Below the pieces are notes generated by a model, which saw nothing but the letters and a program-made list of their open reading frames with translations, did not search any database and was not told the origin of the DNA. From a virus: 64,000 nt of DNA. A program made the translations under genes and the position numbers. The DNA is taken from positions 1 to 64,000 of IMG/VR virus record IMGVR_UViG_3300038468_000170; one strand, given 5' to 3'. Below are positions 16,653 to 49,812 of this stretch, piece by piece (the stretch's first letter is position 1; every line of letters starts with the position of its first letter).

Positions 16653-17810
16653 ATGCGAACGTACGTCGTTCAGCCCGGAGACACACCGGCCGGCATCGCT
16701 GCTCGTCCGGACATGGCGGGCTGTCCAAAATGTTCGATTGACATCATAAAATCGAATCCTCACAAGCCGACCGTAGTTCACCCGAATGGCTTCGTTACCT
16801 TCCAAGATCTGCGCGAAGGCGAGAAACTCAATCTTCCCGACAAGTGGTTCGACGGCTCCCTCGACGATCGCCCTCGCGCGTACTTCGCGGCACTCCCCTA
16901 TCACGACGGCGTGACTCCGTCGACGCTCGGAGACCTCGCCTCAGGAGTGCTCGGTGACTATGCGTCACTCGATGCCGCCTCCGCGCAAATCGGAGCTCTC
17001 TCCGCGATGGGGGCACAAGAGTTCAGCGACAACGTGGGCGCTACGTGTGACCTCCTCGAAGCGTCAGTGCGAGAAGCGTACGGAAACACGAGTAAGCCAG
17101 CGGCAGCGGGGCCCGCCCAGGACGTGCATGCCTCGACGTATTGGGTTCGACAGCGAAACCAAGACTTGAAGGCCGCAATCGCCGCCGGGGACGGCTCGGA
17201 CTATCAGGTGCGGCAGAGCATCCTCCAAGTTCTTTCTTCGGGGCTCGGTAGCGCAAGGCTCGCGCTGAAAGAGTTCTATGGAAGCACGCCCACGCCCGCG
17301 ACAGGAGGCGCCTTCCCGGAGACCGTAACGACCGCGGCGCAGGCGGTCGCTTCCGCCATCGCAGCAGATCCGAACTACTGCACGTCGGTCGCGCATCCTG
17401 GGAGCCCCGTCAATTCGGCGGTGCACGTGTTCAAAACGGCATGGAACGCCTCCGAGAGCCCTAAAGTGCCGATCGGCACCAGCAGCTACGAGCAGGAAAC
17501 CGCTGGCGCGCTCGCGCGCGTGCTCGGCACCGCTCCCTCGGCGTGCGCGGCTCGCGTACCTACTTTGCCGTCTTCACCTCCAATCGGTCCGTCGCAACCG
17601 ATCATCGTGCCTCCGGAGGAAAAAGGACTGAGCTTCGGTACCGTTCTCGGTCTTGGGTTGCTCGGGGCCGGTGCAGTAGGTGGTGCGATCTATCTCGCCA
17701 CGAAACAGGAACCGATCCGAGCGCGTCGCGTGCGTCGAGTGAGGCCAGTTCGAAGGCGTCGACCCGATCCGACGTTTTATTACAACCCCGACGATGGAGA
17801 GCTTCCGTGA
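16653..17810 (+). CDS. LysM-domain tail-anchored membrane protein
   Basis: YVVQPGDTPAGIA...NP...LREGEKLNLP; C-terminal TM and Arg-rich tail. Confidence 0.8.
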   Translation: MRTYVVQPGDTPAGIAARPDMAGCPKCSIDIIKSNPHKPTVVHPNGFVTFQDLREGEKLNLPDKWFDGSLDDRPRAYFAALPYHDGVTPSTLGDLASGVLGDYASLDAASAQIGALSAMGAQEFSDNVGATCDLLEASVREAYGNTSKPAAAGPAQDVHASTYWVRQRNQDLKAAIAAGDGSDYQVRQSILQVLSSGLGSARLALKEFYGSTPTPATGGAFPETVTTAAQAVASAIAADPNYCTSVAHPGSPVNSAVHVFKTAWNASESPKVPIGTSSYEQETAGALARVLGTAPSACAARVPTLPSSPPIGPSQPIIVPPEEKGLSFGTVLGLGLLGAGAVGGAIYLATKQEPIRARRVRRVRPVRRRRPDPTFYYNPDDGELP

Positions 17811-18466
17811 TCGAAAAGCCAGTAGCCGGCGTACAGACGGACACGCGCCCGCACCCCGCAGGTAAAAAGGGAGCCCGACTGTCACTGAAAGAGGTCGCGG
17901 AGCGTGCATGGAAAGCACGGATGAGTCCGCGCCTTCGCGCATGGGTCACGCAACGCCTTGCCGATGCCGGAGTATCGACCGGTGGCCGCCGCCAAAAAGC
18001 GGAAGCGATCCTCGAAGCCTTCCGAAAGAAGGTACCGTACGTCGCCGATCCTTTGATGGGCGAGTTCATGGAAACGCCGGATCAGACGCTCTGCCTCGAT
18101 GAAGGCGGACTTTGTTTCATTGGTACGGATTGCGATGGCGCATCCATTACGCTTGCCGCTGCGGTCATGTCGATCGGCATTCCAGCTATGATCATCGGCA
18201 GCTCCCATAAGGAGCCGTACGATTTGCCGACGCATGTGTTCATGGCGTTCGAAGACGACATGAACGATTGGGTGAAAATGGACGGCACGACGAAGTTGCC
18301 CGTCGGTCGTGTTCCTCCGCATGCGCGTGAGTGGTGGGTCGAGCCCGGCGCCAAAGCGAAAGAGCTCGGTGAGGGCGACTTCGTCGGCATGAGCGGCGCG
18401 GAGCAATCGGGAGCGCTCGAGGGGCCTCCAAGCGTGCTCGATTTTCTCTATCCGACGATCCGGTAG
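17807..18466 (+). CDS. Transglutaminase-like cysteine protease/crosslinker
   Basis: DCDG...THVF...MDGT catalytic-triad pattern. Confidence 0.75.
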   Translation: MIEKPVAGVQTDTRPHPAGKKGARLSLKEVAERAWKARMSPRLRAWVTQRLADAGVSTGGRRQKAEAILEAFRKKVPYVADPLMGEFMETPDQTLCLDEGGLCFIGTDCDGASITLAAAVMSIGIPAMIIGSSHKEPYDLPTHVFMAFEDDMNDWVKMDGTTKLPVGRVPPHAREWWVEPGAKAKELGEGDFVGMSGAEQSGALEGPPSVLDFLYPTIR

Positions 18467-18716
18467 TGACACGATCGTGAAACGATCGTTGAACGCTTAC
18501 TGCGTCTCATCGCTGGCGTCTTGATTGCCGATCTGGCGCGGTAAGCGCGCAACGACCGAGTCGCGTAAACAGGCGATTCGGTTTCGATTTTTGATGTCGC
18601 AAATCGTGACGAACAGGGGCTCCCGGCAAAACCTAATCACGCTCTCTGTTCTGTCTAGTTGCGCTTCGTCTTGACCGAACAAAATCACGCTGAAAGCCTG
18701 TTGTCCGAACCGTGAC

Positions 18717-20444
18717 ATGGGCGGCCTTTACGACGATCGGCTGGCAGATCTCAGCGAACCTCGACGCACTCGTCGATTCGCCGGGCGCCCCGATCCGCGT
18801 CGTTCCCCAATCGAACGCCCGTATCCGGCGCCTCGCCGGCCCGTCGCGCCGACGCCTCCTCGAAGCGTCGCTCGAGAGGCGAAGCGCCCGCCGATGTCCG
18901 TGCAGTCGCTCCTCTTCAGTCGCGACGCCTGGACGACGAGCAAAGCCAAGGCGTGGGCGAAGTCTCACGGCTACCGGTACGGGAAGGTGGACGTCACCGA
19001 CCAGTACATTCGCATCCGTCAATTCGACCCGAAGGGTCTCAAAATCAAACGGACCATCACGCTCGGCCGGGGCATCCGCGCCGTAGTCGCAAGGGAAGAC
19101 AAACGAATGGCAAAAGCAACCGAAGCCCGTCGACGCCGCCGTCCCAGCAAGAAGACCGCCGCACGCAAGCGCCCCCGCAGGAAGCGCGCTCGTGAGGCAG
19201 TGGCGGAGACGCGAAGACGTCCTCGTCGCAAGCGTCGGGCAGCGCGTGCGGAAGCACCGCGGCGTCGACGTCGTGCCGCTCCCATGGTGATGGAGACGAA
19301 GCATCGGCGGCGTCGTCCGCGGCGTCGGGTCGCGCGCGAGGCATGGCGCGGCAATCGTGGCGGTCACGCGACCGCAGCAAAGAAAGGCTGGCGTCGGCGG
19401 AGGCGTGCAGCGGGGAGCGCGCCGCCTCGTAGGCGTCGGCGTCGGGTGCGTGAGGCGGTCGTGGCGGAGACACGCCGACATCGGCGCACTCGTCGGCGCA
19501 GCCGTCGGACGCGCGAAAGCACGTACGCGACGGAGACGAGGCGTCATCGTCGCGGCCGTCGCCGAACGCACGAAGCGGCGCGTGGCGGCGGCATGGGCCT
19601 CGCCGAGTTCGGCGTCGCGATCCTCTCCGGAGGCGTGGGCTTCATTCTGGCCGATGGTCTCGATCGCTTCCTAGCGACGTACGACCCGGCCGCTGCCGAA
19701 AAGCCGACGGACAAGTTCACGAGCGACGGCGCAGGCACGCTCGCGAACACACTCAACGTCGCATCGCGTCCGGGTCTTCTCCGGCTCGGAGTCGGAGCGG
19801 GCATGGTGATCGCACCGGCGGTCGGCGCGGCGTACACCGACGGGATGTTCCGGAGCTCGCTCGAGGGCATGACTCTCGGCACGGGCATCTCGTTCTTCAA
19901 GACGCTGTGGAACAGCTTCTTGATGCCCCTCCTCATCGGGAAGGACACCAGCGAGCCGACGCTCAAGAAGAGCTTCATTGCGAGGCTCTACCCGAGCGAG
20001 GTCGCGGCCGCGATCAACCTGCAACAGAAGCAGACCGCGGTCTCGAGCAGTGGCTCCGGCGCTCTCTCCGGTGCGCCTGCTCAGACTGGCGTCGGCGCCG
20101 ACGTCGGTCCGTTCGCGCTCGCTGCCGATTCACCGTATCCCGATGCGGCGGCGGCGCTGCGGCAGCAGGCCGGCGTGCAGGACTACCCCACCGTGCAAAA
20201 CACGTGGGGGACCGGCGGACCTGGCAACAACTACCCGACCGCCGCACAGGCGATGGGTACCGGTGCCGATCCGTCGGCGTCGGCCGGCATCCCGTACGAA
20301 CCGGGACCTCCCGCGGGCCCCGGACCTGGACCGCAGGCGAGACCGCACACGGATCCCGCGTGCGGATGCATCGGTGCCACGGACATGTACGCCACCTTCC
20401 TCGGTGACGCCGAGGAGACGGATCTGTCGATCAACCTGAACTGA
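18717..20444 (+). CDS. Arg-rich (protamine-like) membrane-anchored putative core protein; start may be 18894 or 19107
   Basis: Repeated (V/A)ETRRxRRxRRR blocks, then hydrophobic helices; lies directly upstream of the candidate capsid gene. Confidence 0.65.
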   Translation: MGGLYDDRLADLSEPRRTRRFAGRPDPRRSPIERPYPAPRRPVAPTPPRSVAREAKRPPMSVQSLLFSRDAWTTSKAKAWAKSHGYRYGKVDVTDQYIRIRQFDPKGLKIKRTITLGRGIRAVVAREDKRMAKATEARRRRRPSKKTAARKRPRRKRAREAVAETRRRPRRKRRAARAEAPRRRRRAAPMVMETKHRRRRPRRRVAREAWRGNRGGHATAAKKGWRRRRRAAGSAPPRRRRRRVREAVVAETRRHRRTRRRSRRTRESTYATETRRHRRGRRRTHEAARGGGMGLAEFGVAILSGGVGFILADGLDRFLATYDPAAAEKPTDKFTSDGAGTLANTLNVASRPGLLRLGVGAGMVIAPAVGAAYTDGMFRSSLEGMTLGTGISFFKTLWNSFLMPLLIGKDTSEPTLKKSFIARLYPSEVAAAINLQQKQTAVSSSGSGALSGAPAQTGVGADVGPFALAADSPYPDAAAALRQQAGVQDYPTVQNTWGTGGPGNNYPTAAQAMGTGADPSASAGIPYEPGPPAGPGPGPQARPHTDPACGCIGATDMYATFLGDAEETDLSINLN

Positions 20445-20550: not shown

Positions 20551-21885
20551 ATGGCAAAGAGCAACAGCAGCAGAAGCATCACCGGCAGGAAGATCTACAA
20601 TTTCGAGCGGGAGAAGGGGAAGGTCCAGCGCATGCAGTTCGGCCTCGGCGCAACGCCGGGCGACCTCGGCGCTGCGCAGAAGTGCATCAAGTGCAGCTTC
20701 GGCAACATCCCCGTCATCGAAGAGGTCGTGTGGACGATCCCTCTGCCGCTCACGGCTGAAGAGGCGCTCGCGACTCTCGGAGACACCGTCAATCTGCTCT
20801 CGGGTAGCTCCAGCGTGCCCGGTGTCGCGTCGATCGATTCGACGTTCCTCATCAACGGCATCCTCCAGACGGACATCCTCGCGCAGGGCGTGGGCGTGCA
20901 CATCTTCTGCGAGCCGATGTCGTTCTCTACGATCGGCAACTCCTTCGCGGCTCCGGCGACGACTGAGGTTCCCCCTCCTTCTCCGGACGTGTTCACGGAC
21001 AACGACTTGTTCAACGGAGCGCTTGGCGGTCAGTTCGCTGGTGCCACCCCGACGAGTGACACTCCGCCGACTCCGGCGGTGTTCGAGTTCGGCGCGGCCG
21101 TTTGGCGCGCGGGCTGGAACTTCATCAACGCATACCAGTTCCAGTGGAAGACCTCGCAACGTGAACTCGTGTTGAACGAGCTCGCGTCGGACGTCTCCTA
21201 CTTCGGCTCCTTCGCGGACGCCGAAGCGAGCGGTACGAGCGAGGTGCCCATCATCGAGTTCGTCGCTGCGGTGAACGCGACTTACCGCTCGAAGGGATCG
21301 GCAACGATCTTCCTGCCGGTTTCCTTCCGGCGTGTCGGTTCGGTGAACAGCACGAGCGCGACCAACAACGTCGGTGTTTTCCATCCGACGCGCGACTTCG
21401 ATCTTGCTCCGGTCACCTGGGGCGGCCTCCGGTGGCAGGGCTACGGATGCCGTGGCCAGATGTACCGGCCGATCGAGAGCCCCTGCTTCCTCGAGCGCGG
21501 CATCCCCATCGGCATGCTGTTCACCGTGCAGGACGCCGTTCACCAGGCGCTCATGCTCGAGGCAGTCACGATCAACAACGAGCCTCTCGGCAGCAACATC
21601 TCGCCGGACACGAACTTCTCGTGCGCGTCTCAGGTGGGACCTGCCGCCGGGAACGGAGTTCCGACTGCGGGAGCCATCGCCTCCGGAGCGAACAACGTCA
21701 TGCTGGAGCAGACGCTCGACACGACTCCGGTGCTCGTGCAGCAGTCGGTCAACGTTTGCCGAGAGGTCTTCAAGGGCGGCATCCTGAAGATCGGCATCAA
21801 GATCAAGGGCTGGGAAATGCCCGGAGGCTGGAAGGCGTACTGCGAGACCAACATGCCGCAGCTCATGGGTCCTCGGACGGCCTGA
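20551..21885 (+). CDS. Candidate major capsid protein (beta-rich, possibly jelly-roll)
   Basis: 444 aa, strong codon bias, GGAG RBS, no TM helix, followed by a strong hairpin; position in the virion module. Fold unverified. Confidence 0.5.
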   Translation: MAKSNSSRSITGRKIYNFEREKGKVQRMQFGLGATPGDLGAAQKCIKCSFGNIPVIEEVVWTIPLPLTAEEALATLGDTVNLLSGSSSVPGVASIDSTFLINGILQTDILAQGVGVHIFCEPMSFSTIGNSFAAPATTEVPPPSPDVFTDNDLFNGALGGQFAGATPTSDTPPTPAVFEFGAAVWRAGWNFINAYQFQWKTSQRELVLNELASDVSYFGSFADAEASGTSEVPIIEFVAAVNATYRSKGSATIFLPVSFRRVGSVNSTSATNNVGVFHPTRDFDLAPVTWGGLRWQGYGCRGQMYRPIESPCFLERGIPIGMLFTVQDAVHQALMLEAVTINNEPLGSNISPDTNFSCASQVGPAAGNGVPTAGAIASGANNVMLEQTLDTTPVLVQQSVNVCREVFKGGILKIGIKIKGWEMPGGWKAYCETNMPQLMGPRTA

Positions 21886-21979: not shown

Positions 21980-22582
21980 ATGCAGCCCAAAACATACGAC
22001 GTCCGCTCGCTCGCTTTGTGGGCCCCGAAGACTGCCTACGGAATGGTAGTCGGCGTTCCGCGCGTGCCGTTCGTCGCGGACATCCCAATCCAGTTCTCCT
22101 CGAGCACTGTGAACGCTCCGCCTGTCGTACAGAACCTCCAGAACAACCTGACGCAGGACACAGTCATCGAGCGCGTCTCCTTCAATCTGTTCCAGCAAAA
22201 CAGCTTCCCCGGATCTCCGTTCCAGAGTCTCTATTTCAACCAACTGAAGCAGAGCGGACAGACCGGAGTCGGCGTGCAGATGGCTGTCTACGGTGGCCCG
22301 AAGTACAATGTGAACGACGTCTTCACCGATCTCGGGAATCTGGCGGACGTGTTCGCAACGACATGGCCAGAGGGGTGGCCACTTCAAAAGCAGAGCAATG
22401 TGAAGATCAGTGCGATCCTCACGCAGACTCCAGTGAGCGTTCCGTTCAACGTCATCATCACCCTACTCGGGTGGCAGTTCCTTTCAAAGGAACTCGACGA
22501 TATGAGCGACACCGAAGCGCGTGACCGGTTGCGCAAGCTCGGCATCGAGACCCCGGACATCAGCATTCTGCTCAAACCGTGA
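21980..22582 (+). CDS. Putative minor/second capsid protein (beta-rich)
   Basis: Alternating hydrophobic strands; follows candidate MCP. Confidence 0.45.
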   Translation: MQPKTYDVRSLALWAPKTAYGMVVGVPRVPFVADIPIQFSSSTVNAPPVVQNLQNNLTQDTVIERVSFNLFQQNSFPGSPFQSLYFNQLKQSGQTGVGVQMAVYGGPKYNVNDVFTDLGNLADVFATTWPEGWPLQKQSNVKISAILTQTPVSVPFNVIITLLGWQFLSKELDDMSDTEARDRLRKLGIETPDISILLKP

Positions 22583-22587: not shown

Positions 22588-23472
22588 ATGACCTCCCGCT
22601 CCGACAACGTGATCCCTCTCCAGCGCTACCCCGGCGGGGTCGCGCAAGGGATTCGTTCGGTCCTTGCGGGCGGTCGGTACGAGGTCGTCACCAACGGTCC
22701 GAACCCCGAGTTCGGGTTCATCGGAAGCGATCCCTACGACACGAACGCCTACACCGGGCTCGTCGTGCCCTCGACTCCGAGCTCTGCGATCGGGAACGCG
22801 CGCTACCTCTTCCTTCTTGCGCGCGCGAGCTTCAGCACCGGTGAGCAGAGTTCAGACCGTCTCGGTGTGCGTCTCGTCGGCATTCGGCAGTACGCCGAAC
22901 TCGTCGCGCGGATCCCCGCCGGCACGGATCCGCCGCTCAATCGCGAGTTCGGTCCTCCTGAAGGCAGCACGGTCACGTTTCACAAGGAGATCACGAGCCC
23001 GCTCTGGCATCCGCCGGACGGCAACATCTCCTGGCACGTGATGGTGATCAACAAGGTGCAGCGGGACACGAGAAACCCCGCCAACACCGACGGGTTCATC
23101 TACCAAGACTCGCTCTCTCCCGCGCTCCTCTACCAAGTGCCGGCGCCGTACGCGCCTCCGAACGGAGGGCGCCCGTGGGGGACGCCGCTCGCAGCGAGCC
23201 TCGGCAACATCCACGAGCTCCGGTACCACTGGCGCGCCGACAACAGCGAGTACGTTCTCGACATCCCGATACCGGTGCCGTGTGACGTCGCGCTCTTCGC
23301 GAGTGTTCGGCAGAACAACACCGACCTGAACCCAGTCCTCACCGATTGCATGGCATTCGGTGTGCTCTCTCCCGAGGATCAGTTCTTGGTCACGTACAAC
23401 AACTTCGCGCAGTACGGGACGATCGCGGGCGCGCTCGTGTTCGACCAGAACCTTGGGGAGGACGTACCGTGA
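22588..23472 (+). CDS. Putative virion structural protein
   Basis: Beta-rich, within the structural operon. Confidence 0.5.
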   Translation: MTSRSDNVIPLQRYPGGVAQGIRSVLAGGRYEVVTNGPNPEFGFIGSDPYDTNAYTGLVVPSTPSSAIGNARYLFLLARASFSTGEQSSDRLGVRLVGIRQYAELVARIPAGTDPPLNREFGPPEGSTVTFHKEITSPLWHPPDGNISWHVMVINKVQRDTRNPANTDGFIYQDSLSPALLYQVPAPYAPPNGGRPWGTPLAASLGNIHELRYHWRADNSEYVLDIPIPVPCDVALFASVRQNNTDLNPVLTDCMAFGVLSPEDQFLVTYNNFAQYGTIAGALVFDQNLGEDVP

Positions 23473-24167
23473 CACCCGCGCAAGCCTCAGGTCACCCGGA
23501 CTTCGTCACAGACGTTCCCGTTCAGGGTCCGACCGACGAGGGACTTCGCGCAGCAGACTGCCGCTTCGCTCAAGAACGATTACCGGCGCGCCCGGCGTGC
23601 GTCGATTGCAAAGGACCGATTCCCATGTGGGCACAAAGCAAAGGACTGCTCGGCGAGCACGTTTCGTTCGGAGGTAGAGGCGCCCTCGGCTTCGCTCTGA
23701 ATGCGGCGGGAGATCCCGAAGTCTGGACGAAGCTCTCGGCCGAACAGCAAGCGTGGGTCGTCGCGACGCTCACGACGTTGAACAACCTCATCTACCAGGC
23801 GACCGGTACCACGTGTCCCACCTGGGGACCTGCCATCACGGCCGCGGGCGGGTGCTTTCAGAACTGGTTCAACAAGAACGCGAAGCTCACGAAGCCTGAC
23901 GGATCTCCGCTCGTTCTTCGGACCGACGGCGTCTTCGATCAGGACACGCTGAACGCACTCACCACCATCGCCGCCATGGATCCGGGGCACTTCCAGAAAG
24001 CGTTCCCCCCGGGCGCGATCACTTCGGCAGCTCCGACGGAAGAGAAGAAGATCTCGACCGCAGGAATGGTCGGTATCGCTGCCGCCGTCGCTACGGTCGG
24101 GGGCGGAGTCGTCTACGCCGTCACGCGCGGCGGCAAACGCAAATCTCGTCGCAAGAGCAGGAGCTGA
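23469..24167 (+). CDS. Tail-anchored membrane protein with PG-binding-like segment
   Basis: LRTDGVFDQDTLNAL; EEKKIST-TM-KRKSRRK. Confidence 0.65.
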   Translation: MTPAQASGHPDFVTDVPVQGPTDEGLRAADCRFAQERLPARPACVDCKGPIPMWAQSKGLLGEHVSFGGRGALGFALNAAGDPEVWTKLSAEQQAWVVATLTTLNNLIYQATGTTCPTWGPAITAAGGCFQNWFNKNAKLTKPDGSPLVLRTDGVFDQDTLNALTTIAAMDPGHFQKAFPPGAITSAAPTEEKKISTAGMVGIAAAVATVGGGVVYAVTRGGKRKSRRKSRS

Positions 24168-24169
24168 TC

Positions 24170-25519
24170 ATGCAGTACCACCGAGTTCAGTACGGAGAGA
24201 GCCCGACGATGATCGCGCGCCGCTACGGCGTGTCGCTCGACCGGCTCGTTGCCGCGAATCCCCACAAACGCACCAAGATGGTCGCGAGCACTCGGACCTT
24301 CGAAGGGATCCGCCCCAACGAGGTGGTGCACGTGCCGGTCGGAGTTGGAGCCGTCGCTCCTGCCGATCCGAACGCGCCGCACGCGCAGATCAAGCAAGGA
24401 AGTCGCGGAGCCGACGTCGCGCTCTGGCAGACGATCATCGGCGTTACAGCGGACGGCATCTTCGGGCCGAATACCGCTCAGGCAACGAAAGCGTGGCAGA
24501 GCAGGCACGGCGTCGCTGCGGACGGCATCGTCGGTCCGAAGACATGGGCGGCGGCACTCGGCGGCGGAGCTCCGGCGCCTTCCGCGCCTATTTCCGTGAC
24601 TGCTCCGACTCCCGCGCCGTCTTCGGGACTTGCTGCGGCAGCCGCAGCGGCGCTCGCGGCACTCAGCGCTGACTCGAACTACTGCGTGAGCGTCGGTCGC
24701 GTAGGAACTCCGGTCAACACGACCGTCCACAACTTCAAGGCCGCGTGGAACTCTTCGAATCCGGGTAGCCCGGTTCCCATCGGCACCGGCAAATACGAGC
24801 CGGTCGTGGCGAATGCGCTCTCGTCGGCGCTCGGGGGGCAGACTGTTCCTCCGGGATGTGGTGCGGCCCCGGCAGCTCCGCCTCCGCCTGTCGCACCTCC
24901 TCCTCCCGTCGCGCCTCCGCCGGTCACGCCGCCGTCGGTGACGCCCGTCGCGCCGAGCGTCCCCAGTGCCCCCAGCGTGCCGAGCGCTGTGGGCGCGTTG
25001 ACGGTCATCGACCCGTGTGACCAGACGAACGTCAACATCGTCCGCCAGGCGCAAAGTGTCCTCGGCGTCACCGTCGACGGAAAGTACGGTCCGAACACGG
25101 CGGCTGCCGCGAAACGGCTCGTCCCGAGCGCTCCGGCCGCGTGCAGTCCGACTCCGTCGTGGTGGGGAGCGAAGGGCAGCGCACCGACGCCCCCGCCGAC
25201 CGCGCGTCCGCCGATCCCCTCGCCCGCGGCTCCGGTTCCCGCACCGACACCGGCCGCGCCTACCCCAGGAGTTCCCGCACCGGCCGCGCAGGCGCCTGCG
25301 GCCCTTGGTCCCGCACAACCCCCCGTCGTCGTCCCCGCAGAGAAGAAGATCTCGACCGGCGCAATCGTGGCCGGCGCTGTCGGCGCGGTGGCTCTCGTCA
25401 GCCTCGCTGCCGTCGCGATGTCGGGCAAGAAACCGGGGCATCGCGGCGGTCGTCGACCGGCGCACAAAGGTCCCTCGCGTCGCAAGAAGAAGTCCAAGCG
25501 CAGTTCAAGGAAGAGGTAA
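24170..25519 (+). CDS. LysM + peptidoglycan-binding domain tail-anchored protein
   Basis: HRVQYGESPTMIARRY (LysM); GSRGADVALWQ...DGIFGPNT...DGIVGPKT (PG_binding_1); C-terminal TM and basic tail. Confidence 0.85.
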   Translation: MQYHRVQYGESPTMIARRYGVSLDRLVAANPHKRTKMVASTRTFEGIRPNEVVHVPVGVGAVAPADPNAPHAQIKQGSRGADVALWQTIIGVTADGIFGPNTAQATKAWQSRHGVAADGIVGPKTWAAALGGGAPAPSAPISVTAPTPAPSSGLAAAAAAALAALSADSNYCVSVGRVGTPVNTTVHNFKAAWNSSNPGSPVPIGTGKYEPVVANALSSALGGQTVPPGCGAAPAAPPPPVAPPPPVAPPPVTPPSVTPVAPSVPSAPSVPSAVGALTVIDPCDQTNVNIVRQAQSVLGVTVDGKYGPNTAAAAKRLVPSAPAACSPTPSWWGAKGSAPTPPPTARPPIPSPAAPVPAPTPAAPTPGVPAPAAQAPAALGPAQPPVVVPAEKKISTGAIVAGAVGAVALVSLAAVAMSGKKPGHRGGRRPAHKGPSRRKKKSKRSSRKR

Positions 25520-25523: not shown

Positions 25524-25769
25524 ATGCGTGTCGTCATCACCCGGGCGACGCTCAAGCAGCATCGAGCTTGCAGCGACGCCTACATCTCTCCGGAATGGGA
25601 CGAGAAGGAAGACGCGATCGTGTTCCAAGATTGGGACAAGACAGTCGAACGACTTCTCGCAAAGCCCAACGGCGTCGGACTAGATCAGCTCGACTGGTAC
25701 ACGGCGCACAAGCTCGTGCCGATGACTCGAAGCGAATTCGAGGCGCTGAAAAAGAGGATGAGCAAATGA
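25524..25769 (+). CDS. Hypothetical protein
   Basis: GAGGT RBS. Confidence 0.6.
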   Translation: MRVVITRATLKQHRACSDAYISPEWDEKEDAIVFQDWDKTVERLLAKPNGVGLDQLDWYTAHKLVPMTRSEFEALKKRMSK

Positions 25770-26278: not shown

Positions 26279-26289
26279 AGGAGACGATC

Positions 26290-26475
26290 ATGCCGAAGAT
26301 GATTCACGAGGAGCTCATGTGCTGCGGGTACAAGAGGTGCCCGACCGTCAAGGTGTTCGACGACGGAAGCATCGTGCTCTCCGATGATGACGCGGAAATC
26401 GGATCGGTCGGAACGATCAAGCTCCGCCCCGAAGCCGTCGCTCGTCTCGTCGAGCTGGCCGCCAAGAAGGAGTAG
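26290..26475 (+). CDS. Small hypothetical protein (CCxxxxC)
   Basis: GGAG RBS. Confidence 0.6.
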   Translation: MPKMIHEELMCCGYKRCPTVKVFDDGSIVLSDDDAEIGSVGTIKLRPEAVARLVELAAKKE

Positions 26476-26481
26476 TTTCGA

Positions 26482-27693: not shown

Positions 27694-27700
27694 CAGAATC

Positions 27701-41054: not shown

Positions 41055-41056
41055 AA

Positions 41057-41632
41057 ATGGACATCGAACACGTTGTTTCTACGGCGGAACAAATCCACGG
41101 GTGGATGAGCAAGGAAGAACTACGGTGGCTCGCAGAAACGGCAGCCGAGAGAAAACTGATCGTCGAAGTAGGATCTTGGCGCGGCAGATCAACCAAAGCT
41201 CTCGCCATGACGACACCTGGCCGCGTTTTTGCGGTCGACCACTGGTCCGGCTCGGTCTCTGAGCGAGACAGTGTGCATCGTGAAGCAGTCGAGCTCGGCG
41301 CAGACGAAATATTCCGACAATTCTGCGCGAACCTAGCCCCAGAAATTCGCAAAGGCTGCCTGGTTCCATTGCGTCAAGACAGCACCGTCGCCGCTGCCAC
41401 ACTTCTCCCTGTGCTGGTCCCTCCAGGCGCCGACATGATTTTCATCGACGCCGAGCACACCTTCGAGTCCGTGCGACGAGACATCGTCAGCTTTTTACCT
41501 CTTTGCGCCAACGGCGCAGTCTTGTGCGGACACGACTACGGACACGAACCAGTCACTCGCGCCGTCAGAGAAACGCTCGGCAGATTTGAGGTCCGTGTCG
41601 TCGCCGGTAGTATTTGGGCGGTCACTGTATGA
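41057..41632 (+). CDS. Class I SAM methyltransferase (Methyltransf_24-like)
   Basis: VEVGSWRGRST, DMIFIDAEH, LCGHDY. Confidence 0.88.
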   Translation: MDIEHVVSTAEQIHGWMSKEELRWLAETAAERKLIVEVGSWRGRSTKALAMTTPGRVFAVDHWSGSVSERDSVHREAVELGADEIFRQFCANLAPEIRKGCLVPLRQDSTVAAATLLPVLVPPGADMIFIDAEHTFESVRRDIVSFLPLCANGAVLCGHDYGHEPVTRAVRETLGRFEVRVVAGSIWAVTV

Positions 41633-42513
41633 TGCAAAAAATAGCCGTAGTCTCCGGAGGTAGCCCCGACTACTTGGTCGACATCGTTGCAGACGGATTG
41701 ATTCGACTCTTAGGGCGAGACAAGGTCCATCTTCGGTTCAATCAGTTCGCACCTTGGCCGGGGTTCGCGCAAACACTACACGGATTTGAATCCGATGCAT
41801 CTACTATCGACGAATGCGGAGTTCTGATCGCATCCGTTCGAAGTGATCTAGACGCACTGCTCAAATCACGAGCCGGCAAACTAGTAGCAGTAATCGACGG
41901 CGAAGACGACGCGCACCTGCGATCAAAATGGATCGAATTTTCTGATCTGTACTTCAAGCGTGAATGCCTGAGAGGGGAATCACTCCCGCCCAAAGTGAGA
42001 TCTCTATCGTTCGCGGCCGTCCCCGAAGAAATAGAAAGAGCGAAGGACCGTGATGTTGAGGTCTTCTTCGCCTCGGGAGACAGTCACGAAGATCGAAAGA
42101 CAGTGCGTCGAATTCTTTCGCAAGAAAAAATGTGGAACACCAGCGTCGGCCATCTTTACGAATACACGCACGAGGCATACATGACGATGCTAGGTCGTTC
42201 TCGTATCGGGGTGAACGTAAGAGGCGCTGGTTGGGACACGTACCGATATTGGGAAATCGCATGGTCCGGTGCGCTCTTGCTGTCGCAACGGTTGGGCATA
42301 CAGATCGACGATGATTTCGTACCGAACGTGGAAGCGGTCTACTTCAACGGCGCTGAAGACTGTGTACGGATCGCAAAGACACTTCTCACGGATGAGGCAC
42401 GTCGTACGGACATTGCTGCGCGCGGGCTAGAAGCAGTAAGAACGCGGCACTTGTCAACCCATCGCGCCACGAAAGTTCTAGACATGCTGTCATCGGTCCG
42501 ATCCGGCACGTAA
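41629..42513 (+). CDS. Glycosyltransferase (CgeB/Glyco_trans_1_2-like)
   Basis: IDGED, YFKRE, GAGWDTYRYWEI...GALLL, IAARG. Confidence 0.78.
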   Translation: MMQKIAVVSGGSPDYLVDIVADGLIRLLGRDKVHLRFNQFAPWPGFAQTLHGFESDASTIDECGVLIASVRSDLDALLKSRAGKLVAVIDGEDDAHLRSKWIEFSDLYFKRECLRGESLPPKVRSLSFAAVPEEIERAKDRDVEVFFASGDSHEDRKTVRRILSQEKMWNTSVGHLYEYTHEAYMTMLGRSRIGVNVRGAGWDTYRYWEIAWSGALLLSQRLGIQIDDDFVPNVEAVYFNGAEDCVRIAKTLLTDEARRTDIAARGLEAVRTRHLSTHRATKVLDMLSSVRSGT

Positions 42514-42562
42514 ATAACCAGTGTTTTCGGGGGGTATCAACTTCGAGTAGAATGGGAGCGCG

Positions 42563-43528
42563 ATGCCGCCCCAAACCCCTCCCTGGAAAGCCGTTGCGGT
42601 CGGCGGCCTCGTTCTCGGGGGCCTTGGCGCCCTCATGCTCCTCGGACGTCGCTCCGAGGCGGCTCCGGCGACGCCTAAGCGCGTGGCGCTCATCGGCGAC
42701 TCGTACGCGGTCGGACTCGGTCCGGAGCTGGCGAAACTGCTTGCTGGATTTCAGTGCCAGGGGGACGGGTTCACATGCACCGGGGCAAGCTGCGAGGGGC
42801 ACGCTGGAACGAACACCGCGCAATGGTCCACGCACGCGAAGGAGTGCGGCCATTGCGGCGACTGGCTCACCGCGTTCAAGCCCGACGTCGTGCTCGTCTC
42901 CCTCGGCGTGAACGACGGCAGCGCTCCGAATCCGGCGAACTACCAGAGCATCGTGAGCGCTCTTCACGGGATCGGGGCGCGCGTGATCTGGATCGAGCCT
43001 CCGGCGGGAGTAAAGACGCCCTCACGCGCCATCATCCGGTCGCTGGGGGTGCCGACCGTGCCAGGTACAGCAACGCCGCTTGCGTCGGACGGTTTGCATC
43101 CTACGAGCTACCAGATGTGGGCGCGAGAGGTTGCACAAGCGCTTACGCAGGCGCCGAACAACGAATCCTCAAACGTGGCAAGCCTCGTCGGGCCTAACTA
43201 TCCGGTGAAGTACAATGCCCAAGCGCTTCAAGTAGCCGCAGCACCAGATCCAAAGAATCCCGTTATGTTGTGTAGCTACGCCGCATTCGCGCAACTAGAG
43301 TCGCCTGATCTTGCAACGGGATGGGTAAATCTCTGGTCGCTCAAAGCCAAGTATGAGACCGCACCCGAAGCGCTCTACCGGATGATCGGAAGGCAACGGA
43401 TCGTACGACTCGTGAAACGGTACTTCGATCCGAAAACATTCGCCGAACTACCGCCTGACATTCTCTACGAGAGCGATCAGAAGTTTCCGATCCCGACAGC
43501 CCCGGATCGAGGAGTGCCTTGCGGATGA
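42563..43528 (+). CDS. SGNH/GDSL hydrolase with N-terminal membrane anchor
   Basis: LIGDS, SLGVND, DGLHP. Confidence 0.85.
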   Translation: MPPQTPPWKAVAVGGLVLGGLGALMLLGRRSEAAPATPKRVALIGDSYAVGLGPELAKLLAGFQCQGDGFTCTGASCEGHAGTNTAQWSTHAKECGHCGDWLTAFKPDVVLVSLGVNDGSAPNPANYQSIVSALHGIGARVIWIEPPAGVKTPSRAIIRSLGVPTVPGTATPLASDGLHPTSYQMWAREVAQALTQAPNNESSNVASLVGPNYPVKYNAQALQVAAAPDPKNPVMLCSYAAFAQLESPDLATGWVNLWSLKAKYETAPEALYRMIGRQRIVRLVKRYFDPKTFAELPPDILYESDQKFPIPTAPDRGVPCG

Positions 43529-45621: not shown

Positions 45622-46236
45622 ATGTCCAGAATCGCCGGTACGAGAAAAGGTGAAACATATCCGGACCGTTCACCCGGTGCGGGCGGGTTCGGCGGACTCC
45701 TACAACTCGGATCTGACGCACCCACGGAAGACGTGGCCTACTCTTCGTCGGGTCCGCTCACGATGGTGCGAGACAATTCGGGACCACCCGCGAACGAAAT
45801 CTCGATCCCGATGCGGAACTTCAAGTCTGGGAACCTGCTCGTCGTGATGTGGGCCGTCTACGCACAAGAAGATCCGGACTCGCCGGGCGCCATCACCATA
45901 TTCAACGTTCAGCCGTTCCTCGACGAAACCCCTTCTGGCGGTGGTTTACAAACGATTTCGGGCGCAGACCTCACGAGCCCGGTGCAACTCATCCCCGACA
46001 TCTCGCAATTCGGCAGAAGCGCAATCGTGTCGGTTCGCGTCTCGGGATTTCCGAACTTCAACGTCCGGTTCAACATAGAAAACACGTCTGGAACGAACAT
46101 CATCGTTCCTTCAGCGCTGGGCGTTCTCGACGTCGAACACGGAACGACACCCGGCAATACCCACTTCGTCGCATTCGAAATCGACGCCTCGATCGTCTCG
46201 CAGTTCTCGCCGAATATTCTCGTCGACGTTCCTTGA
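45622..46236 (+). CDS. Putative spike/decoration protein, ETYP family
   Basis: MSRIAGTRKGETYP. Confidence 0.65.
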   Translation: MSRIAGTRKGETYPDRSPGAGGFGGLLQLGSDAPTEDVAYSSSGPLTMVRDNSGPPANEISIPMRNFKSGNLLVVMWAVYAQEDPDSPGAITIFNVQPFLDETPSGGGLQTISGADLTSPVQLIPDISQFGRSAIVSVRVSGFPNFNVRFNIENTSGTNIIVPSALGVLDVEHGTTPGNTHFVAFEIDASIVSQFSPNILVDVP

Positions 46237-46246
46237 AGGAGATCCC

Positions 46247-46801
46247 ATGCGCATCGCGGGCACCAGAAGAGGCGAAACGTATCCAAAGCCGCCTCAGTCC
46301 GGGAATGCTCAAGGACTTTTGGAAGTGCGATCGGATGCGGTTCAAATCACTCATTTTACAGGAAATACAGATACGGCCGTCTTCGTTACTCGAAACGCGG
46401 GCGGTGACCCTCTCGAAGTCGTCTTTTCAAATTGGGCTACCGGCGACGTGCTCGAGGTTCAATACAACTTCATTCAAGACGGAGACGAAATATTCGATTC
46501 TGTGAACGTGTCAGTGTGCGCTGTCGTTTCGATAGATGGCGGTGCAACATGGAAACACCTTTCGCCAAGCGGCATACGAAACTTCTCCGATCAAGGTCCG
46601 TGCGCGGTAACGGTTTCGGCTGTTCTCAACGCTGCTCCTCGGGTGCGTTTATGGATCCAGCCCATCATTCCGGTACAAATTCGAGGAGTTGGTGAGCCCG
46701 CAACCAACGATAAAGCTGTCTACCTGCAATGCGCTCGCTATTCGGGCTCGATCTTTCCAGATGGAGCTTCCGGACAGCTTACCGAACAAGTAAGCCCATG
46801 A
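46247..46801 (+). CDS. Putative spike/decoration protein, ETYP family
   Basis: MRIAGTRRGETYP; VSIDGGATW Asp-box-like motif. Confidence 0.65.
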   Translation: MRIAGTRRGETYPKPPQSGNAQGLLEVRSDAVQITHFTGNTDTAVFVTRNAGGDPLEVVFSNWATGDVLEVQYNFIQDGDEIFDSVNVSVCAVVSIDGGATWKHLSPSGIRNFSDQGPCAVTVSAVLNAAPRVRLWIQPIIPVQIRGVGEPATNDKAVYLQCARYSGSIFPDGASGQLTEQVSP

Positions 46802-47226
46802 AGGTCGGAGGATACACATATCTAACCAACGACGGATTGCTTGCACAAGGCAGTGTACCCCCGACGAACGTGTCACTTCCGTTCGACACGATCGTGCTCG
46901 CTGCACGAGAACATCAGTTTCGAATGCCCAAGTTCACAGGCGAAGTGATCTACGCGCCGCTCGACGACAGCGGCCCGCCACCGACCTTAGCCGAACGTGA
47001 GCTCATCAAACGGACCGCGAGCCGTGTCGCCCAACGAATCCGAGCCAAGCGGCGCGTCCTTGTGACGTGCCACCAGGGGCGCAACCGTTCTGGGGTCATC
47101 GCGGGGCTTGCGCTCGTAGAGCTCGGCCTGCCTGGCCCTCGAGCGGCAGAGCGAATCAAACGGATTCGGAACGGTCTCACCAACCGCTACTTCCATGAGA
47201 TGGTGGTAGGAGGACGACGACTATGA
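46798..47226 (+). CDS. Dual-specificity (Cys-based) phosphatase
   Basis: PLDD acid loop and VLVTCHQGRNRS CX5R motif. Confidence 0.85.
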   Translation: MKVGGYTYLTNDGLLAQGSVPPTNVSLPFDTIVLAAREHQFRMPKFTGEVIYAPLDDSGPPPTLAERELIKRTASRVAQRIRAKRRVLVTCHQGRNRSGVIAGLALVELGLPGPRAAERIKRIRNGLTNRYFHEMVVGGRRL

Positions 47227-49466
47227 CCCAAGCTCACGGAACGTTCCGATATCTCGAGCACATCTTCGGCGTCGGTGACGCGAGCTCGAACCTCATCGCT
47301 GCGGCGCTCAAGGCGAGCATGCCGAAGCAAGATCTATCGACGCCTCCGCCTGGCGCAAAGGTCTGGCCGGCGGCCGACTGGCAGAGCGGCGCAGCTCAGA
47401 AAAAGGGCGCGAAGATCGGCGACTACATTGACTGGGGGCCGAATCACACCGTGCTCACCCCATTGCCAGGCGGCGGCTACGCGAACGTACCCACGCCTCG
47501 CTACGCGCTCATCACGCCGCATCAAGAAGGGATCTTCGACAAAGTAGGTAGCACCATCGAAGGGGTCGGCCGTGCAGTAGGAAACGCCGTGACTTCGGCC
47601 GGACAAGCCGCCGGACAAGCCGCTGGCACCGTTGCGAAGATCGCCGGTAGCGCCGCGCAGGAGACACAGAAGGCCCTCACGTCAGGCGCGAAGTTCGTCG
47701 CGAAAGCCGGCGGCGACGTCGGCAAGTTCGTTGCGGAACAAGCACAGAACTTCGCAAAGGACCCGATTGGACAGCTCACGAAGGTCGCGACGACCGGAGG
47801 TCTTAGTCTCGTCGGCGTGCATCCCGAAGAAATCCTGAACAAGGCTGGCATCCCCTCGCCCGATCAAATCCTGCAACACCTCGGCCTGCCGCCGACCTCG
47901 GCGATCGTCCACGAGGTCTACACGGACGTCACACAGCCTCAGGTACTCCTGCAAAAGATCCCTGGGATCGGAAAGCTCGCGAAGTTCATTCCTGCGATGC
48001 CGGATCCCACGCAGATCGCCGGTAACCTCGTCAATTCCGCACTCTCGGGCGACATCCAGGCGGTCAAGACGCAAGCGCTCGAAGTCGGGCACCAGATCGC
48101 CGACGCTATCACGATGGTGCCGGGCGTCGGCAACGCCATCGGGGCGCCGCTCGCCGCAGCGATCGAGCTCATCGAGACCGGCAGCGCCCTCAAGGCAGCA
48201 CTCGAACTCCTGCTCTCGCAAGTGCCCGGCATCCCGCCGCCGGTCCGCGACATCCTCCGCGCAACGCTCGATGGCATCGCCGACATCATCGAACAGGAGA
48301 AGGCCGTCACCGACGTCCTCATCGCTCAGTTCAAACAGGGCGTTCTCGATCAAGTGAAGAAAACGGGAGTCCCTGACGAGGTCTCCGGACTCGTCAACAA
48401 CATACTCGACGGCGCCGTGCAGGTGATCCTCCACCACAAGCCGCTCGACCGCGCTGCACTCGATCTTGCCGAAACGGGGATCAAGAAAGCCGTGAGCAAG
48501 CTCGGCGCGACTCCCGAGGTGCAGCAAGCACAGAAAGCGCTCGCGGATCTGAAGAACGTCTACAAGGGAATCGACACTATCCACGCGCTCACGCAGGGGA
48601 TCGTCCAGCTCGAGAAGCAGGACGCTCAGAAGAAAGACCCCGTCGTCCAGAAGAAGATTGCCGACATCAAAGCGGCCATCGAGGGGCAGAGGCTCCTTAC
48701 GCAGGCCGCCGCCAAGCAAGCCAAAAGCAAGCCCCCTGCGTTGCGCTCTGCGGCGCCTTCGAAGGTGCCCCCGGCGCTGCGGTCTGCCGCACCTGCCCCG
48801 CCCGCCGTCCCGACGCTCCCTGTGCCCCCGCCGGCCCCTCAAGCGTCGACAGGGCCGACCTACGGCCCCTATCCTCCCATGAAGCCCGGCGTCCACGGGC
48901 TTGGCGCGAGCGACGCCTGGCGTTGGTTCGCGCTCTTCTCGAACGGGGCGCTCATCGCCGAACAGGGCCCCCTGTGGCTTTCCGACACCGACGCCGAACG
49001 CACCGCGGCAGATTGGCTGGAAGCGTCTCAAGGCAGGGGCTACATCGGCACCGTGTCGCGGTGGGACTGGGATGGCAAGAGCTGGCGGCAAGCGTCCGGT
49101 GCACTCAGCGCTCCGCCGCCGCACCCACACGGCGGTGGAGGCCATCACGGAGGAGGAGGCCACCATGGCGGTGGCGGACATGGCGGAGCCCGTGTCTTCC
49201 GCGGGGGCAGAGCGATCCCCGGATGGTGGGGGCCGTGGTGGGGCACCCCCTGGTCCCCCGAAGTCGTCACGACGACCGAGACCTGCCAGACCTGGGGCGA
49301 CCCCATCGAGATGCCGCCCGCGATGCAGAGGGCGGCACGCGCGGCGCTCGGCGCCTCGAAAGGAAACCCGACGGCGGTACGAGGCCCGGACAACGTCCTC
49401 TACTTGTTCGCGTTCGAGGGCAACGACGTAACGGCGCGGCCCTGCGCGGCTGTAGCGACTTCCTGA
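47223..49466 (+). CDS. Large helical putative virion protein with His/Gly repeat
   Basis: Ala/Gly amphipathic helices, Pro-rich linker, HGGGGH repeats. Confidence 0.65.
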   Translation: MTQAHGTFRYLEHIFGVGDASSNLIAAALKASMPKQDLSTPPPGAKVWPAADWQSGAAQKKGAKIGDYIDWGPNHTVLTPLPGGGYANVPTPRYALITPHQEGIFDKVGSTIEGVGRAVGNAVTSAGQAAGQAAGTVAKIAGSAAQETQKALTSGAKFVAKAGGDVGKFVAEQAQNFAKDPIGQLTKVATTGGLSLVGVHPEEILNKAGIPSPDQILQHLGLPPTSAIVHEVYTDVTQPQVLLQKIPGIGKLAKFIPAMPDPTQIAGNLVNSALSGDIQAVKTQALEVGHQIADAITMVPGVGNAIGAPLAAAIELIETGSALKAALELLLSQVPGIPPPVRDILRATLDGIADIIEQEKAVTDVLIAQFKQGVLDQVKKTGVPDEVSGLVNNILDGAVQVILHHKPLDRAALDLAETGIKKAVSKLGATPEVQQAQKALADLKNVYKGIDTIHALTQGIVQLEKQDAQKKDPVVQKKIADIKAAIEGQRLLTQAAAKQAKSKPPALRSAAPSKVPPALRSAAPAPPAVPTLPVPPPAPQASTGPTYGPYPPMKPGVHGLGASDAWRWFALFSNGALIAEQGPLWLSDTDAERTAADWLEASQGRGYIGTVSRWDWDGKSWRQASGALSAPPPHPHGGGGHHGGGGHHGGGGHGGARVFRGGRAIPGWWGPWWGTPWSPEVVTTTETCQTWGDPIEMPPAMQRAARAALGASKGNPTAVRGPDNVLYLFAFEGNDVTARPCAAVATS

Positions 49467-49608
49467 CGAGGGCGCTCCATGGTGCGGAGCTCTACGGTGC
49501 AGCCGTCGCAATAGCCGCTGTAGGGGCGCGCGCTGTCGAAGTACCGCAACCGGTGGCAGCGCCGGCAGATCGATCGCCTTTTCGCCATCGGTCCGCTATC
49601 CTATCCCC

Positions 49609-49812
49609 ATGGCCAGGAAGAGCAAACACCACGCGCCCGGATGGCTCCCGTTCGCGTTGGCAGCGTCGGCCGTGACGGCGCTCGTTGCCGGGGCGCGCGC
49701 CGGCTGGAAGCTCTCTGGCGAGGCAAAGGCTCCGGCACCAGCATCGCCCTCGAGCACGCAGAAGGCGGGCGTCTTGCAAGACTGGGCGAGCGGCGTCGTC
49801 TATCGGGCCTGA
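49609..49812 (+). CDS. Small membrane protein
   Basis: Basic N-terminus plus TM helix. Confidence 0.55.
   Translation: MARKSKHHAPGWLPFALAASAVTALVAGARAGWKLSGEAKAPAPASPSSTQKAGVLQDWASGVVYRA

What the first reader, a model, noticed from the sequence alone, without database searches (positions are those of the whole stretch)
16653..49812. Virion module of an apparently non-tailed, membrane-containing virus with a large (>64 kb) genome
Seen: 33 kb of co-oriented structural-looking genes with no recognisable terminase, portal, HK97 capsid, tail tube/sheath or baseplate. Instead there are many single-TM proteins with basic tails, membrane-anchored muralytic and PG-binding proteins, a transglutaminase-like protein and three consecutive soluble beta-rich proteins (444, 200 and 294 aa). 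No Walker-A packaging ATPase is seen in this module; it could lie outside the window. Known: internal-membrane jelly-roll viruses (tecti-, cortico-, sphaerolipoviruses) show this profile but usually have 10-30 kb genomes. Inference: an undescribed virus lineage.
Basis: partly seen in the sequence, partly recalled or inferred. Interest (0 to 1): 0.85.

Follow-up and report, generated by a model that had tools for sequence, protein, structure and literature searches.

The report
Large tailless jelly-roll bacterial virus
This gene block most likely builds the particle of an uncultured 96-kb bacterial virus from wetlands that has jelly-roll coat proteins but no tail, portal or DNA-packaging motor genes, a design described so far only for viruses with genomes less than half this size.

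The parts
13110..13697 (+). RadC-like JAB-domain protein. First gene of the deep core block.
   Evidence: Pfam RadC, E 6e-22. Present in 6 of 6 fully fetched relatives and syntenic with the capsid genes.
14230..15882 (+). 550-aa protein with a long Pro/Gln-rich middle and conserved ends. Near-core. Function unknown; a scaffold-like role is only a guess.
   Evidence: No Pfam or PHROG hit. Composition seen. Present in 5 of 6 relatives, with only the ends conserved.
16653..17810 (+). 385-aa tail-anchored protein: LysM-like N-terminus, one C-terminal TM segment, Arg-rich tail.
   Evidence: TM segment at residue 328 and basic tail. Present in 6 of 6 relatives. No family hit.
17807..18466 (+). Transglutaminase/papain-like protein, a possible maturation protease. 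Start uncertain (17807 or 17921).
   Evidence: Weak Pfam Transglut_core hit, E 0.0058, below the cut-off. 54-76% identity in most relatives, 6 of 6. No relative in deposited phages.
18717..20444 (+). 575-aa protein: small N-terminal domain, a 175-residue stretch that is 39% Arg, then TM helices. Candidate DNA-condensing protein tethered to a membrane.
   Evidence: 68 Arg in residues 116-290; TM segments at 293 and 354. An Arg-rich gene lies directly upstream of the capsid gene in all 7 genomes examined.
20551..21885 (+). 444-aa candidate major capsid protein: a jelly-roll core formed by N- and C-terminal strands, with an insertion of about 250 residues.
21980..22582 (+). 200-aa single jelly-roll protein: candidate small capsid or penton protein.
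22588..23472 (+). 294-aa beta-rich protein, third member of the conserved trio. Fold not tested.
   Evidence: Present in 32 of 32 related loci at 66% median identity. No PDB, Pfam, PHROG or Atlas lead.
23346..25519 (+). Two tail-anchored proteins: a 273-aa protein, and a 449-aa protein with LysM and PG_binding_1 domains.
   Evidence: Pfam PG_binding_1 E 1.4e-14 and LysM E 1.2e-4. C-terminal TM segments with Lys/Arg tails. Present in 5 of 6 relatives.
25766..28324 (+). Three spike-like proteins with the N-terminal docking tag (25766 carries a degenerate form; 26482 and 27701 the strict form), plus a conserved 66-aa Cys-rich protein (26275-26475).
   Evidence: Tag found at residues 1-16 by a regular-expression search. 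Sequences. The 66-aa protein is in 5 of 6 relatives.
28258..28599 (+). 113-aa protein with two TM segments. Near-core.
   Evidence: TM segments at residues 21 and 85. Present in 5 of 6 relatives at 50-66% identity.
29634..37306 (+). Variable fibre cluster: tag plus collagen-like 533-aa and 216-aa proteins, two further collagen-like proteins (247 and 232 aa), and a 1060-aa Kelch plus Gly-rich protein.
   Evidence: GPTGP repeats and the tag. Kelch Pfam hits. PHROG 'tail fiber' hits on three members. No counterpart in 6 relatives.
37771..43528 (+). Glycosylation and surface-modification cluster: two GT2 glycosyltransferases, a GT1-like protein, and an SGNH hydrolase with an N-terminal TM segment.
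   Evidence: Pfam Glycos_transf_2, Glyco_trans_1_2 E 1e-14, Lipase_GDSL_2/SGNH, PHROG glycosyltransferase E 3e-21.
45622..46801 (+). Two more tag-bearing spike-like proteins (204 and 184 aa).
   Evidence: Tag at the N-terminus.
47223..49466 (+). 747-aa protein, Ala/Lys-rich and helix-like by eye, with a Pro-rich linker and a His/Gly-rich stretch. Role unknown; not core.
   Evidence: No Pfam or PHROG hit. Only about 10% of its length matches in 3 relatives.
53100..54752 (+). 550-aa near-core protein outside the block, with an internal repeat. Function unknown.
   Evidence: Present in 5 of 6 relatives at 48-59% identity. No Pfam or PHROG hit.

Best explanation
The block is the particle-building module of a complete, roughly 95.8-kb circular (or terminally redundant) temperate dsDNA virus of bacteria. 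The virus belongs to a widespread uncultured lineage found in wetlands and soils.

Shown:
- The lineage is defined by one syntenic seven-gene core: a RadC-like JAB protein, a tail-anchored LysM-like protein, a papain/transglutaminase-like protein, an arginine-rich membrane protein, and three beta-rich proteins of 444, 200 and 294 aa.
- The 200-aa protein is a single jelly-roll. The 444-aa protein has a jelly-roll core.
- No terminase, portal, HK97 capsid or conserved P-loop packaging ATPase is encoded.

Inferred:
- The jelly-roll proteins form a tailless icosahedral shell over an internal membrane. That membrane carries the tail-anchored peptidoglycan-binding proteins, which would be used to breach the cell wall at entry.
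- The genome is not pumped into a preformed shell. The arginine-rich, membrane-tethered protein condenses it, and membrane and shell then enclose it, as in the archaeal virus SPV1.
- Six or seven different spikes and collagen-like fibres plug into the shell through a shared 16-residue N-terminal peptide. They are glycosylated by the adjacent transferases and set the host range, which would explain why this part differs between relatives.
For: Genome status:
- The record's last 223 nt match its first 223 nt at 96.9% identity, and joining the ends gives one continuous recombinase ORF. The record is therefore closed.
- The replication and integration genes are phage-like: PolA, PrimPol, Dda-like and SNF2 helicases, a tyrosine integrase and Dam.

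Absence of tailed-phage hallmarks:
- All four TerL HMM families give 0 hits. Three of them (PF03237, PF04466, PF05876) were run over all 25 related records and PF03354 over 5. The control genomes gave hits.
- The HK97 capsid family (PF05065) and the portal family (PF04860) give 0 of 5.
- P-loop scans find only helicases in this genome, no canonical P-loop ORF in the closed genome G007, and only the Dda-like helicase in G024.

The capsid trio:
- The 444/200/294 trio is in 32 of 32 related loci at 66-73% median identity and in the most distant relative.
- 444-aa model: pLDDT 83.7. Its neighbours are beta-sandwiches, led by capsid proteins of internal-membrane viruses.

Other parts:
- An arginine-rich gene lies directly upstream of the capsid gene in 7 of 7 genomes.
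- The N-terminal tag sits at residue 1 of 6 proteins here and of 1-4 proteins in most relatives.
- Tail-anchored TM proteins and PG-binding domains lie in the core.

Literature: SPV1 has single jelly-roll VP4 and VP10, an inner membrane and a VP1 nucleoprotein core (PMC8459092). SPV1 and FLiP lack packaging ATPases (PMC8812541).
Against: - Foldseek gave no hit at E <= 0.001 for either model.
- The 294-aa protein was not folded.
- No virion, lipid or expression data exist.
- Eight of 25 relatives do encode a HerA/FtsK-type ATPase fused to winged-helix repeats. This could be a packaging enzyme and would weaken the 'motorless' reading for the lineage.
- Three collagen-repeat proteins hit PHROG 'tail fiber' families.
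- Condensing about 96 kb without a motor has no precedent at this size.
Confidence: 0.6

Rival explanations
1. Same tailless jelly-roll virus, but the DNA is pumped into a preformed shell by an ATPase, as in PRD1. The enzyme would be the HerA/FtsK-type ATPase with winged-helix repeats seen in some relatives. In genomes such as this one, which lack it, a host translocase or a co-resident helper would supply the function.
For: A HerA/FtsK-like ATPase (Pfam DUF87, AAA_10, TrwB) followed by a coiled coil and two winged-helix repeats occurs in 8 of 25 relatives. It lies next to the recombinase, downstream of the fibre genes. This is the ATPase superfamily that PRD1- and STIV-type viruses use (PMC8328091 abstract; PMC6260650).
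Against: It is not next to the capsid genes. Its architecture also fits a plasmid-type DNA translocase or a partition function.
Confidence: 0.2
2. Not a virion module. A large integrative plasmid-like element encodes a glycosylated, collagen-fibre cell-surface or vesicle coat, and the jelly-roll proteins act as carbohydrate-binding or surface-layer proteins.
For: Jelly-rolls of cellular carbohydrate-binding and PHM-type proteins match as well as capsid proteins do. Collagen-like proteins lie beside glycosyltransferases, which recalls BclA-type spore surface fibres. No packaging machinery is found.
Against: The trio is conserved far more strongly and more syntenically than anything else in closed 67-125 kb elements. 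The three proteins have no signal peptides or TM segments. There are no conjugation ATPases. The arginine-rich protein, the integrase, the phage-like replication genes and the peptidoglycan-binding proteins fit a virus. One relative is recorded as a provirus.
Confidence: 0.1
3. A very divergent tailed phage whose terminase, portal, HK97 capsid and tail proteins escape all profiles.
For: The genome size and the replication genes are typical of tailed phages. There are PHROG 'tail fiber' hits. A 747-aa helix-rich protein could be read as a tape measure.
Against: No P-loop ORF other than helicases in closed genomes, although TerL is a P-loop ATPase. 0 hits with four TerL families, three of them over 25 records. 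The most conserved proteins are jelly-rolls. The deep core holds no candidate of portal or TerL size without TM or Arg-rich features. The 747-aa protein is not conserved.
Confidence: 0.06

Closest known systems
Portogloboviridae (Sulfolobus polyhedral virus 1, SPV1; PDB 6OJ0)
   Different: SPV1 infects hyperthermophilic archaea, has a 20-kb genome and no replication genes. This virus has bacterial hallmarks (tmRNA, LysM/PG_binding_1), about 96 kb, and its own PolA, primase and helicases. There is no sequence similarity. The condensing protein here is arginine-rich and membrane-anchored, and it was not tested against VP1.
Sphaerolipovirus-type viruses (Helvetiavirae: HHIV-2, HCIV-1, SH1, Thermus phage P23-77) and Salisaeta phage SSIP-1
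   Same: Tailless, internal-membrane architecture with small and large jelly-roll capsid proteins encoded side by side. HHIV-2, HCIV-1, SH1 and P23-77 VP16/VP17 appear among the best matches of both models. SSIP-1 is the largest described such phage at 44 kbp and T=49 (PMC6260650).
PRD1-type double jelly-roll viruses (Bamfordvirae: Tectiviridae, Corticoviridae, Turriviridae)
   Different: Only one jelly-roll's worth of residues (136-164) aligns, so a tandem double jelly-roll is not shown. There is no FtsK/HerA ATPase in this genome and no protein-primed polymerase or inverted terminal repeats. The genome is 5-10 times larger.

Membership tests
Caudoviricetes (tailed phages, Duplodnaviria) | Large terminase subunit (a P-loop ATPase plus nuclease) | tested here: not met
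   PF03237, PF04466 and PF05876: 0 of 25 records. PF03354: 0 of 5. Control genomes gave hits. Six-frame P-loop scans of the closed genome find only the Dda-like and SNF2 helicases. PHROGs gave no terminase hit for any ORF scanned one by one; the pooled scan displayed only 25 of 52 families.
Caudoviricetes (tailed phages, Duplodnaviria) | HK97-fold major capsid protein | tested here: inconclusive
   PF05065: 0 of 5 genomes. The two conserved candidates that were modelled are beta-sandwich jelly-rolls. The other proteins were not folded.
Caudoviricetes (tailed phages, Duplodnaviria) | Portal protein | tested here: inconclusive
   PF04860: 0 of 5, and no PHROG portal hit. Only one Pfam portal family was searched in six frames.
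Bamfordvirae (PRD1/STIV-type) | [quoted passage not shown] | tested here: inconclusive
Bamfordvirae and Helvetiavirae (Varidnaviria) | FtsK/HerA-superfamily packaging ATPase | tested here: not met
   Absent from this closed genome: PF01580, PF01935 and PF04665 in six frames, and a profile built from the relatives' ATPases run with hmmsearch --max. Present in 8 of 25 relatives.
Helvetiavirae (sphaerolipovirus-type) | Two adjacent single jelly-roll major capsid proteins | tested here: inconclusive
   The 200-aa protein is a single jelly-roll. The 444-aa protein has a jelly-roll core. The 294-aa protein was not folded. There is no sequence relation among the three.
Portogloboviridae (SPV1) | Single jelly-roll capsid protein of the VP4/VP10 type | tested here: inconclusive
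Portogloboviridae (SPV1) | Archaeal host and a genome of about 20 kb without replication genes | tested here: not met
   Bacterial tmRNA and LysM/PG_binding_1 domains. Closed genome of about 96 kb with PolA, PrimPol and helicases.
Internal-membrane icosahedral viruses in general | Lipid membrane under the protein shell; tailless icosahedral particle | not testable with these tools
   Indirect evidence only: several conserved TM and tail-anchored proteins lie among the capsid genes.

The most novel reading that the evidence does not exclude
A widespread, family-or-higher-rank lineage of bacterial viruses builds large jelly-roll, membrane-lined particles and packs 67-125 kb of dsDNA without any virus-encoded motor, by condensing it on an arginine-rich membrane protein. 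This would be a bacterial counterpart of SPV1 at five times its genome size. It would show that jelly-roll capsids reached near-giant-virus genome sizes in bacteria independently of eukaryotic giant viruses.
Probability: 0.3. Interest if true: 0.9.

Novelty: new variant of a known kind. Interest (0 to 1): 0.75.

Why it matters
All described tailless jelly-roll viruses of bacteria and archaea have genomes of about 9 to 44 kb (PMC6260650). A common environmental lineage of 67-125 kb would break that size limit.

It would add a major non-tailed group to the 'large phage' world, which is currently seen as tailed only.

It would also raise a mechanistic question that can be tested directly: how are 100 kb of DNA enclosed without a terminase or an FtsK-type pump?

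The shared N-terminal docking peptide on many different spikes is a simple modular host-range system that could be tested and reused in the laboratory.

Finally, the lineage is invisible to marker-based phage annotation that relies on terminase, portal and HK97 genes, so its abundance is probably underestimated.

Tried and rejected
- Complex prediction on the 294-aa and 200-aa proteins gave no verdict (score 0.26, mark 0.32). It says nothing either way.
- The ESM Atlas look-up for the 294-aa protein gave only unnamed clusters at 0.78. For the 444-aa protein it gave Cressdnaviricota capsid clusters at 0.80-0.83, below the useful range.
- Profile searches of the three families against PDB sequences found nothing below E 0.2.
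- hhalign among the 444, 200 and 294-aa families showed no paralogy (probabilities below 1%).
- Foldseek against PDB and BFVD gave no hit at E <= 0.001 for either model. No HK97-fold entry appeared in any list.
Context came from the search for related loci, the genome search and the fetch from genomes instead.
- The GTDB genome scan found only MAG fragments (Ca. Binatia, Polyangiaceae), so the host is unresolved.
- The look-up of sequencing runs listed no RNA holder, so there is no expression evidence either way.
- ARAGORN missed the tmRNA that Rfam found.
- The listing of cluster members gave no accessions.
- The SSIP-1 primary paper is not held.
- I considered the 692-aa ORF (84169-86247, -) as a hidden ATPase because a 693-aa ORF in relative G003 had a weak FtsK hit. 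It has no P-loop and no family hit, and only a domain of about 90 residues is shared with relatives. Rejected.
- I considered the small - strand ORFs at 50.3-52.0 kb as an ATPase remnant. The profile search found nothing there. Rejected.
Full report
WHAT THE RECORD IS. The window is bases 1-64,000 of a 96,019-bp IMG/VR virus record with 61% G+C. IMG/VR lists the record as linear. However, its last 223 nt match its first 223 nt at 96.9% identity, and joining the ends restores one continuous tyrosine-recombinase ORF. The assembly is therefore circular or terminally redundant, and the overlap is blurred by strain variation. This matters because a gene missing from the record is missing from the virus.

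Outside the finding, the genome carries ordinary phage-type genes: a family A DNA polymerase, a PrimPol-helicase, Dda-like and SNF2 helicases, ThyX, a dNMP kinase, ParB, a Dam methylase, an RNA ligase and a second tyrosine integrase. It also carries a tmRNA gene and a tRNA-Val gene.

THE OBSERVATION. A + strand gene run spans about 13.1 to 49.8 kb. I scanned all of its ORFs of 75 aa or more with Pfam and PHROGs, and none hit a terminase, portal, HK97 capsid, protease-scaffold, tube, sheath or baseplate family. The pooled PHROGs scan displayed only 25 of 52 families, so I rescanned the large ORFs one by one.

What does hit:
- LysM and PG_binding_1 on a tail-anchored 449-aa protein
- Kelch repeats on a 1060-aa glycine-rich protein
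- glycosyltransferases
- an SGNH hydrolase
- 'tail fiber' PHROGs on three proteins that consist largely of collagen-like GPTGP repeats

The transglutaminase-like call is weak (E 0.0058, below Pfam's cut-off). Several proteins end in one TM helix followed by a Lys/Arg tail.

NO TAILED-PHAGE HALLMARKS AND NO CONSERVED MOTOR. I ran six-frame HMM searches with four TerL families. Terminase_6N, Terminase_3 and GpA_ATPase gave 0 of 25 related records, and TerL_ATPase gave 0 of 5. The same searches gave hits in control genomes. Phage_capsid (HK97) and Phage_portal gave 0 of 5. A relaxed P-loop scan of all six frames finds only the Dda-like and SNF2 helicases here.

Among closed relatives, whose 100-127-bp terminal overlaps are what a circular assembly produces, G007 (80 kb) has no canonical P-loop ORF at all and G024 has only the Dda-like helicase.

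One relative, G002, led me to a 330-aa HerA/FtsK-type ATPase with DUF87, AAA_10 and TrwB hits. In other relatives the ATPase domain continues into a coiled coil and two winged-helix repeats. It occurs in 8 of 25 records. Three of the eight closed genomes carry it. It lies near the recombinase and not near the capsid genes. A maximum-sensitivity profile search finds no trace of it in this genome or in G004. It may be a packaging enzyme in some members, but it is not a core gene.

THE CONSERVED CORE. The 444-aa protein has at least 390 homologues, the best 120 of them at 72-86% identity and many on contigs of 80-139 kb. It has 166 clusters at 50% identity. IMG/VR holds 31 related loci.

tblastn shows the 444, 200 and 294-aa genes in 32 of 32 related loci at 71, 73 and 66% median identity. 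Comparing this genome with six fully fetched relatives, including one whose capsid protein is only 44% identical, leaves one contiguous deep core:
- the RadC-like JAB protein
- the 385-aa tail-anchored protein
- the transglutaminase-like protein
- the arginine-rich 575-aa protein
- the trio

The replication modules differ between members. The fibre and glycosylation region (29.6-49.5 kb) is almost entirely private to this genome.

FOLDS. The 444-aa family (74 sequences) gave a confident model: pLDDT 83.7, pTM 0.82, about 19 strands.
- Foldseek found nothing at E <= 0.001 in PDB or BFVD. Its weak hits were nearly all jelly-roll capsid proteins.

Single-domain targets of 150-180 residues always align across model residues about 50-423. 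From this I infer that N-terminal strands (55-133) and C-terminal strands (384-422) form one jelly-roll, with an inserted domain of about 250 residues. I could not inspect the coordinates, so this is an inference.

OTHER PARTS OF THE MODEL.
- The 575-aa protein has 68 arginines in residues 116-290 (39%), followed by TM helices. A gene with such a stretch lies directly upstream of the capsid gene in all seven genomes.
- Six proteins here begin with a peptide of the form M-x-Y-[IV]-[IV]-G-R-G-R-x-A-R-E-T-Y-P, and a seventh carries a degenerate form. The motif is always at residue 1, on otherwise unrelated bodies. It recurs on 1-4 proteins in most relatives. A shared docking peptide is the simplest reading. 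It would be comparable in principle to the penton-binding tail of adenovirus fibres (own knowledge).

COMPARISON WITH KNOWN VIRUSES. SPV1 has single jelly-roll VP4 and VP10, an inner membrane and a VP1-DNA nucleoprotein core, with a 20-kb genome and T=43 (PMC8459092). SPV1, FLiP and a metagenomic group lack packaging ATPases (PMC8812541, PMC6260650).

The largest described tailless membrane-containing phage, SSIP-1, has 44 kbp (PMC6260650). None of the four core proteins tested matches any of 50,697 deposited phage genomes. Three literature searches found no description of such a lineage.

The genome occurs in several wetland metagenomes from 2020, possibly one sampling campaign. GTDB hits are only MAG fragments labelled Ca. 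Binatia and Polyangiaceae, so the host is open. The tmRNA and the peptidoglycan-binding domains point to bacteria.

VERDICT. The best explanation (confidence about 0.6) is the virion module of a large tailless jelly-roll, probably membrane-lined, bacterial virus without its own packaging motor.

The main open points are the modest fold scores, the patchy HerA-type ATPase, and the lack of any particle data. The same kind of virus has been reported by other follow-ups of this scan on other genomes. I treated those reports as leads and re-tested their claims here.

Noticed in passing
window 49899-50273 (-): Full-length tmRNA gene by Rfam (RF00023, 50.4 bits, above the gathering score of 47, E 1.4e-18). 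It lies on the - strand. ARAGORN did not report it.
   Followed up: partly
window 12947-13025 (-): tRNA-Val (anticodon CAC) between the 224-aa gene and the RadC-like gene, opposite to the surrounding + strand genes.
   Followed up: no
window 1-223 and G000:C1:95795-96017: The contig's ends overlap (223 nt, 96.9% identity, 7 mismatches) inside a tyrosine-recombinase gene. The record is a closed circle or terminally redundant, although it is listed as linear.
   Followed up: yes
L040:14706-15695 (-) (relative G002); also L053, L054, L056, L057: HerA/FtsK-type ATPase that in most carriers continues into a coiled coil and two winged-helix repeats. Present in 8 of 25 relatives and absent here. Its role (packaging, partition or DNA transfer) is unknown.
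   Followed up: partly
window 53100-54752 (+): 550-aa protein with an internal repeat and no family hit. It is conserved in 5 of 6 relatives and always lies near the recombinase, outside the virion block.
   Followed up: partly
window 60908-62293 (-), G000:C1:63023-65413 (-), 68090-69877 (+), 71088-72941 (+): The replication module (Dda-like helicase, PrimPol, SNF2, PolA) is shared at 79-88% identity (PolA and SNF2; PrimPol 66-69%) with relatives G007 and G024, but is absent from others that share the capsid core. Replication modules are exchanged within the lineage.
   Followed up: partly
window 16653-17810 and 24170-25519: The two tail-anchored proteins share an unnamed Cys-flanked domain (NYC.SV...G.PVN...H.FK.AWN) that has no Pfam match.
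   Followed up: no
window 8745-9944 (-): 399-aa protein with a near-threshold Rv2525c-like glycoside-hydrolase domain (27.0 bits against a cut-off of 27.2). It is a possible endolysin and lies outside the virion block.
   Followed up: no
G000:C1:91158-93626 (+) (L003:11158-13626): 822-aa apiosidase-like/GH5-type glycoside hydrolase with a collagen-binding-type domain (Pfam E 4e-37). It could be a virion-associated polysaccharide depolymerase or an auxiliary gene.
   Followed up: no
window 15884-16357 (+): 157-aa protein with a C-terminal four-cysteine zinc-ribbon-like motif (C..C...C..C), seen by eye only. It is conserved in only 2 of 6 relatives.
   Followed up: no
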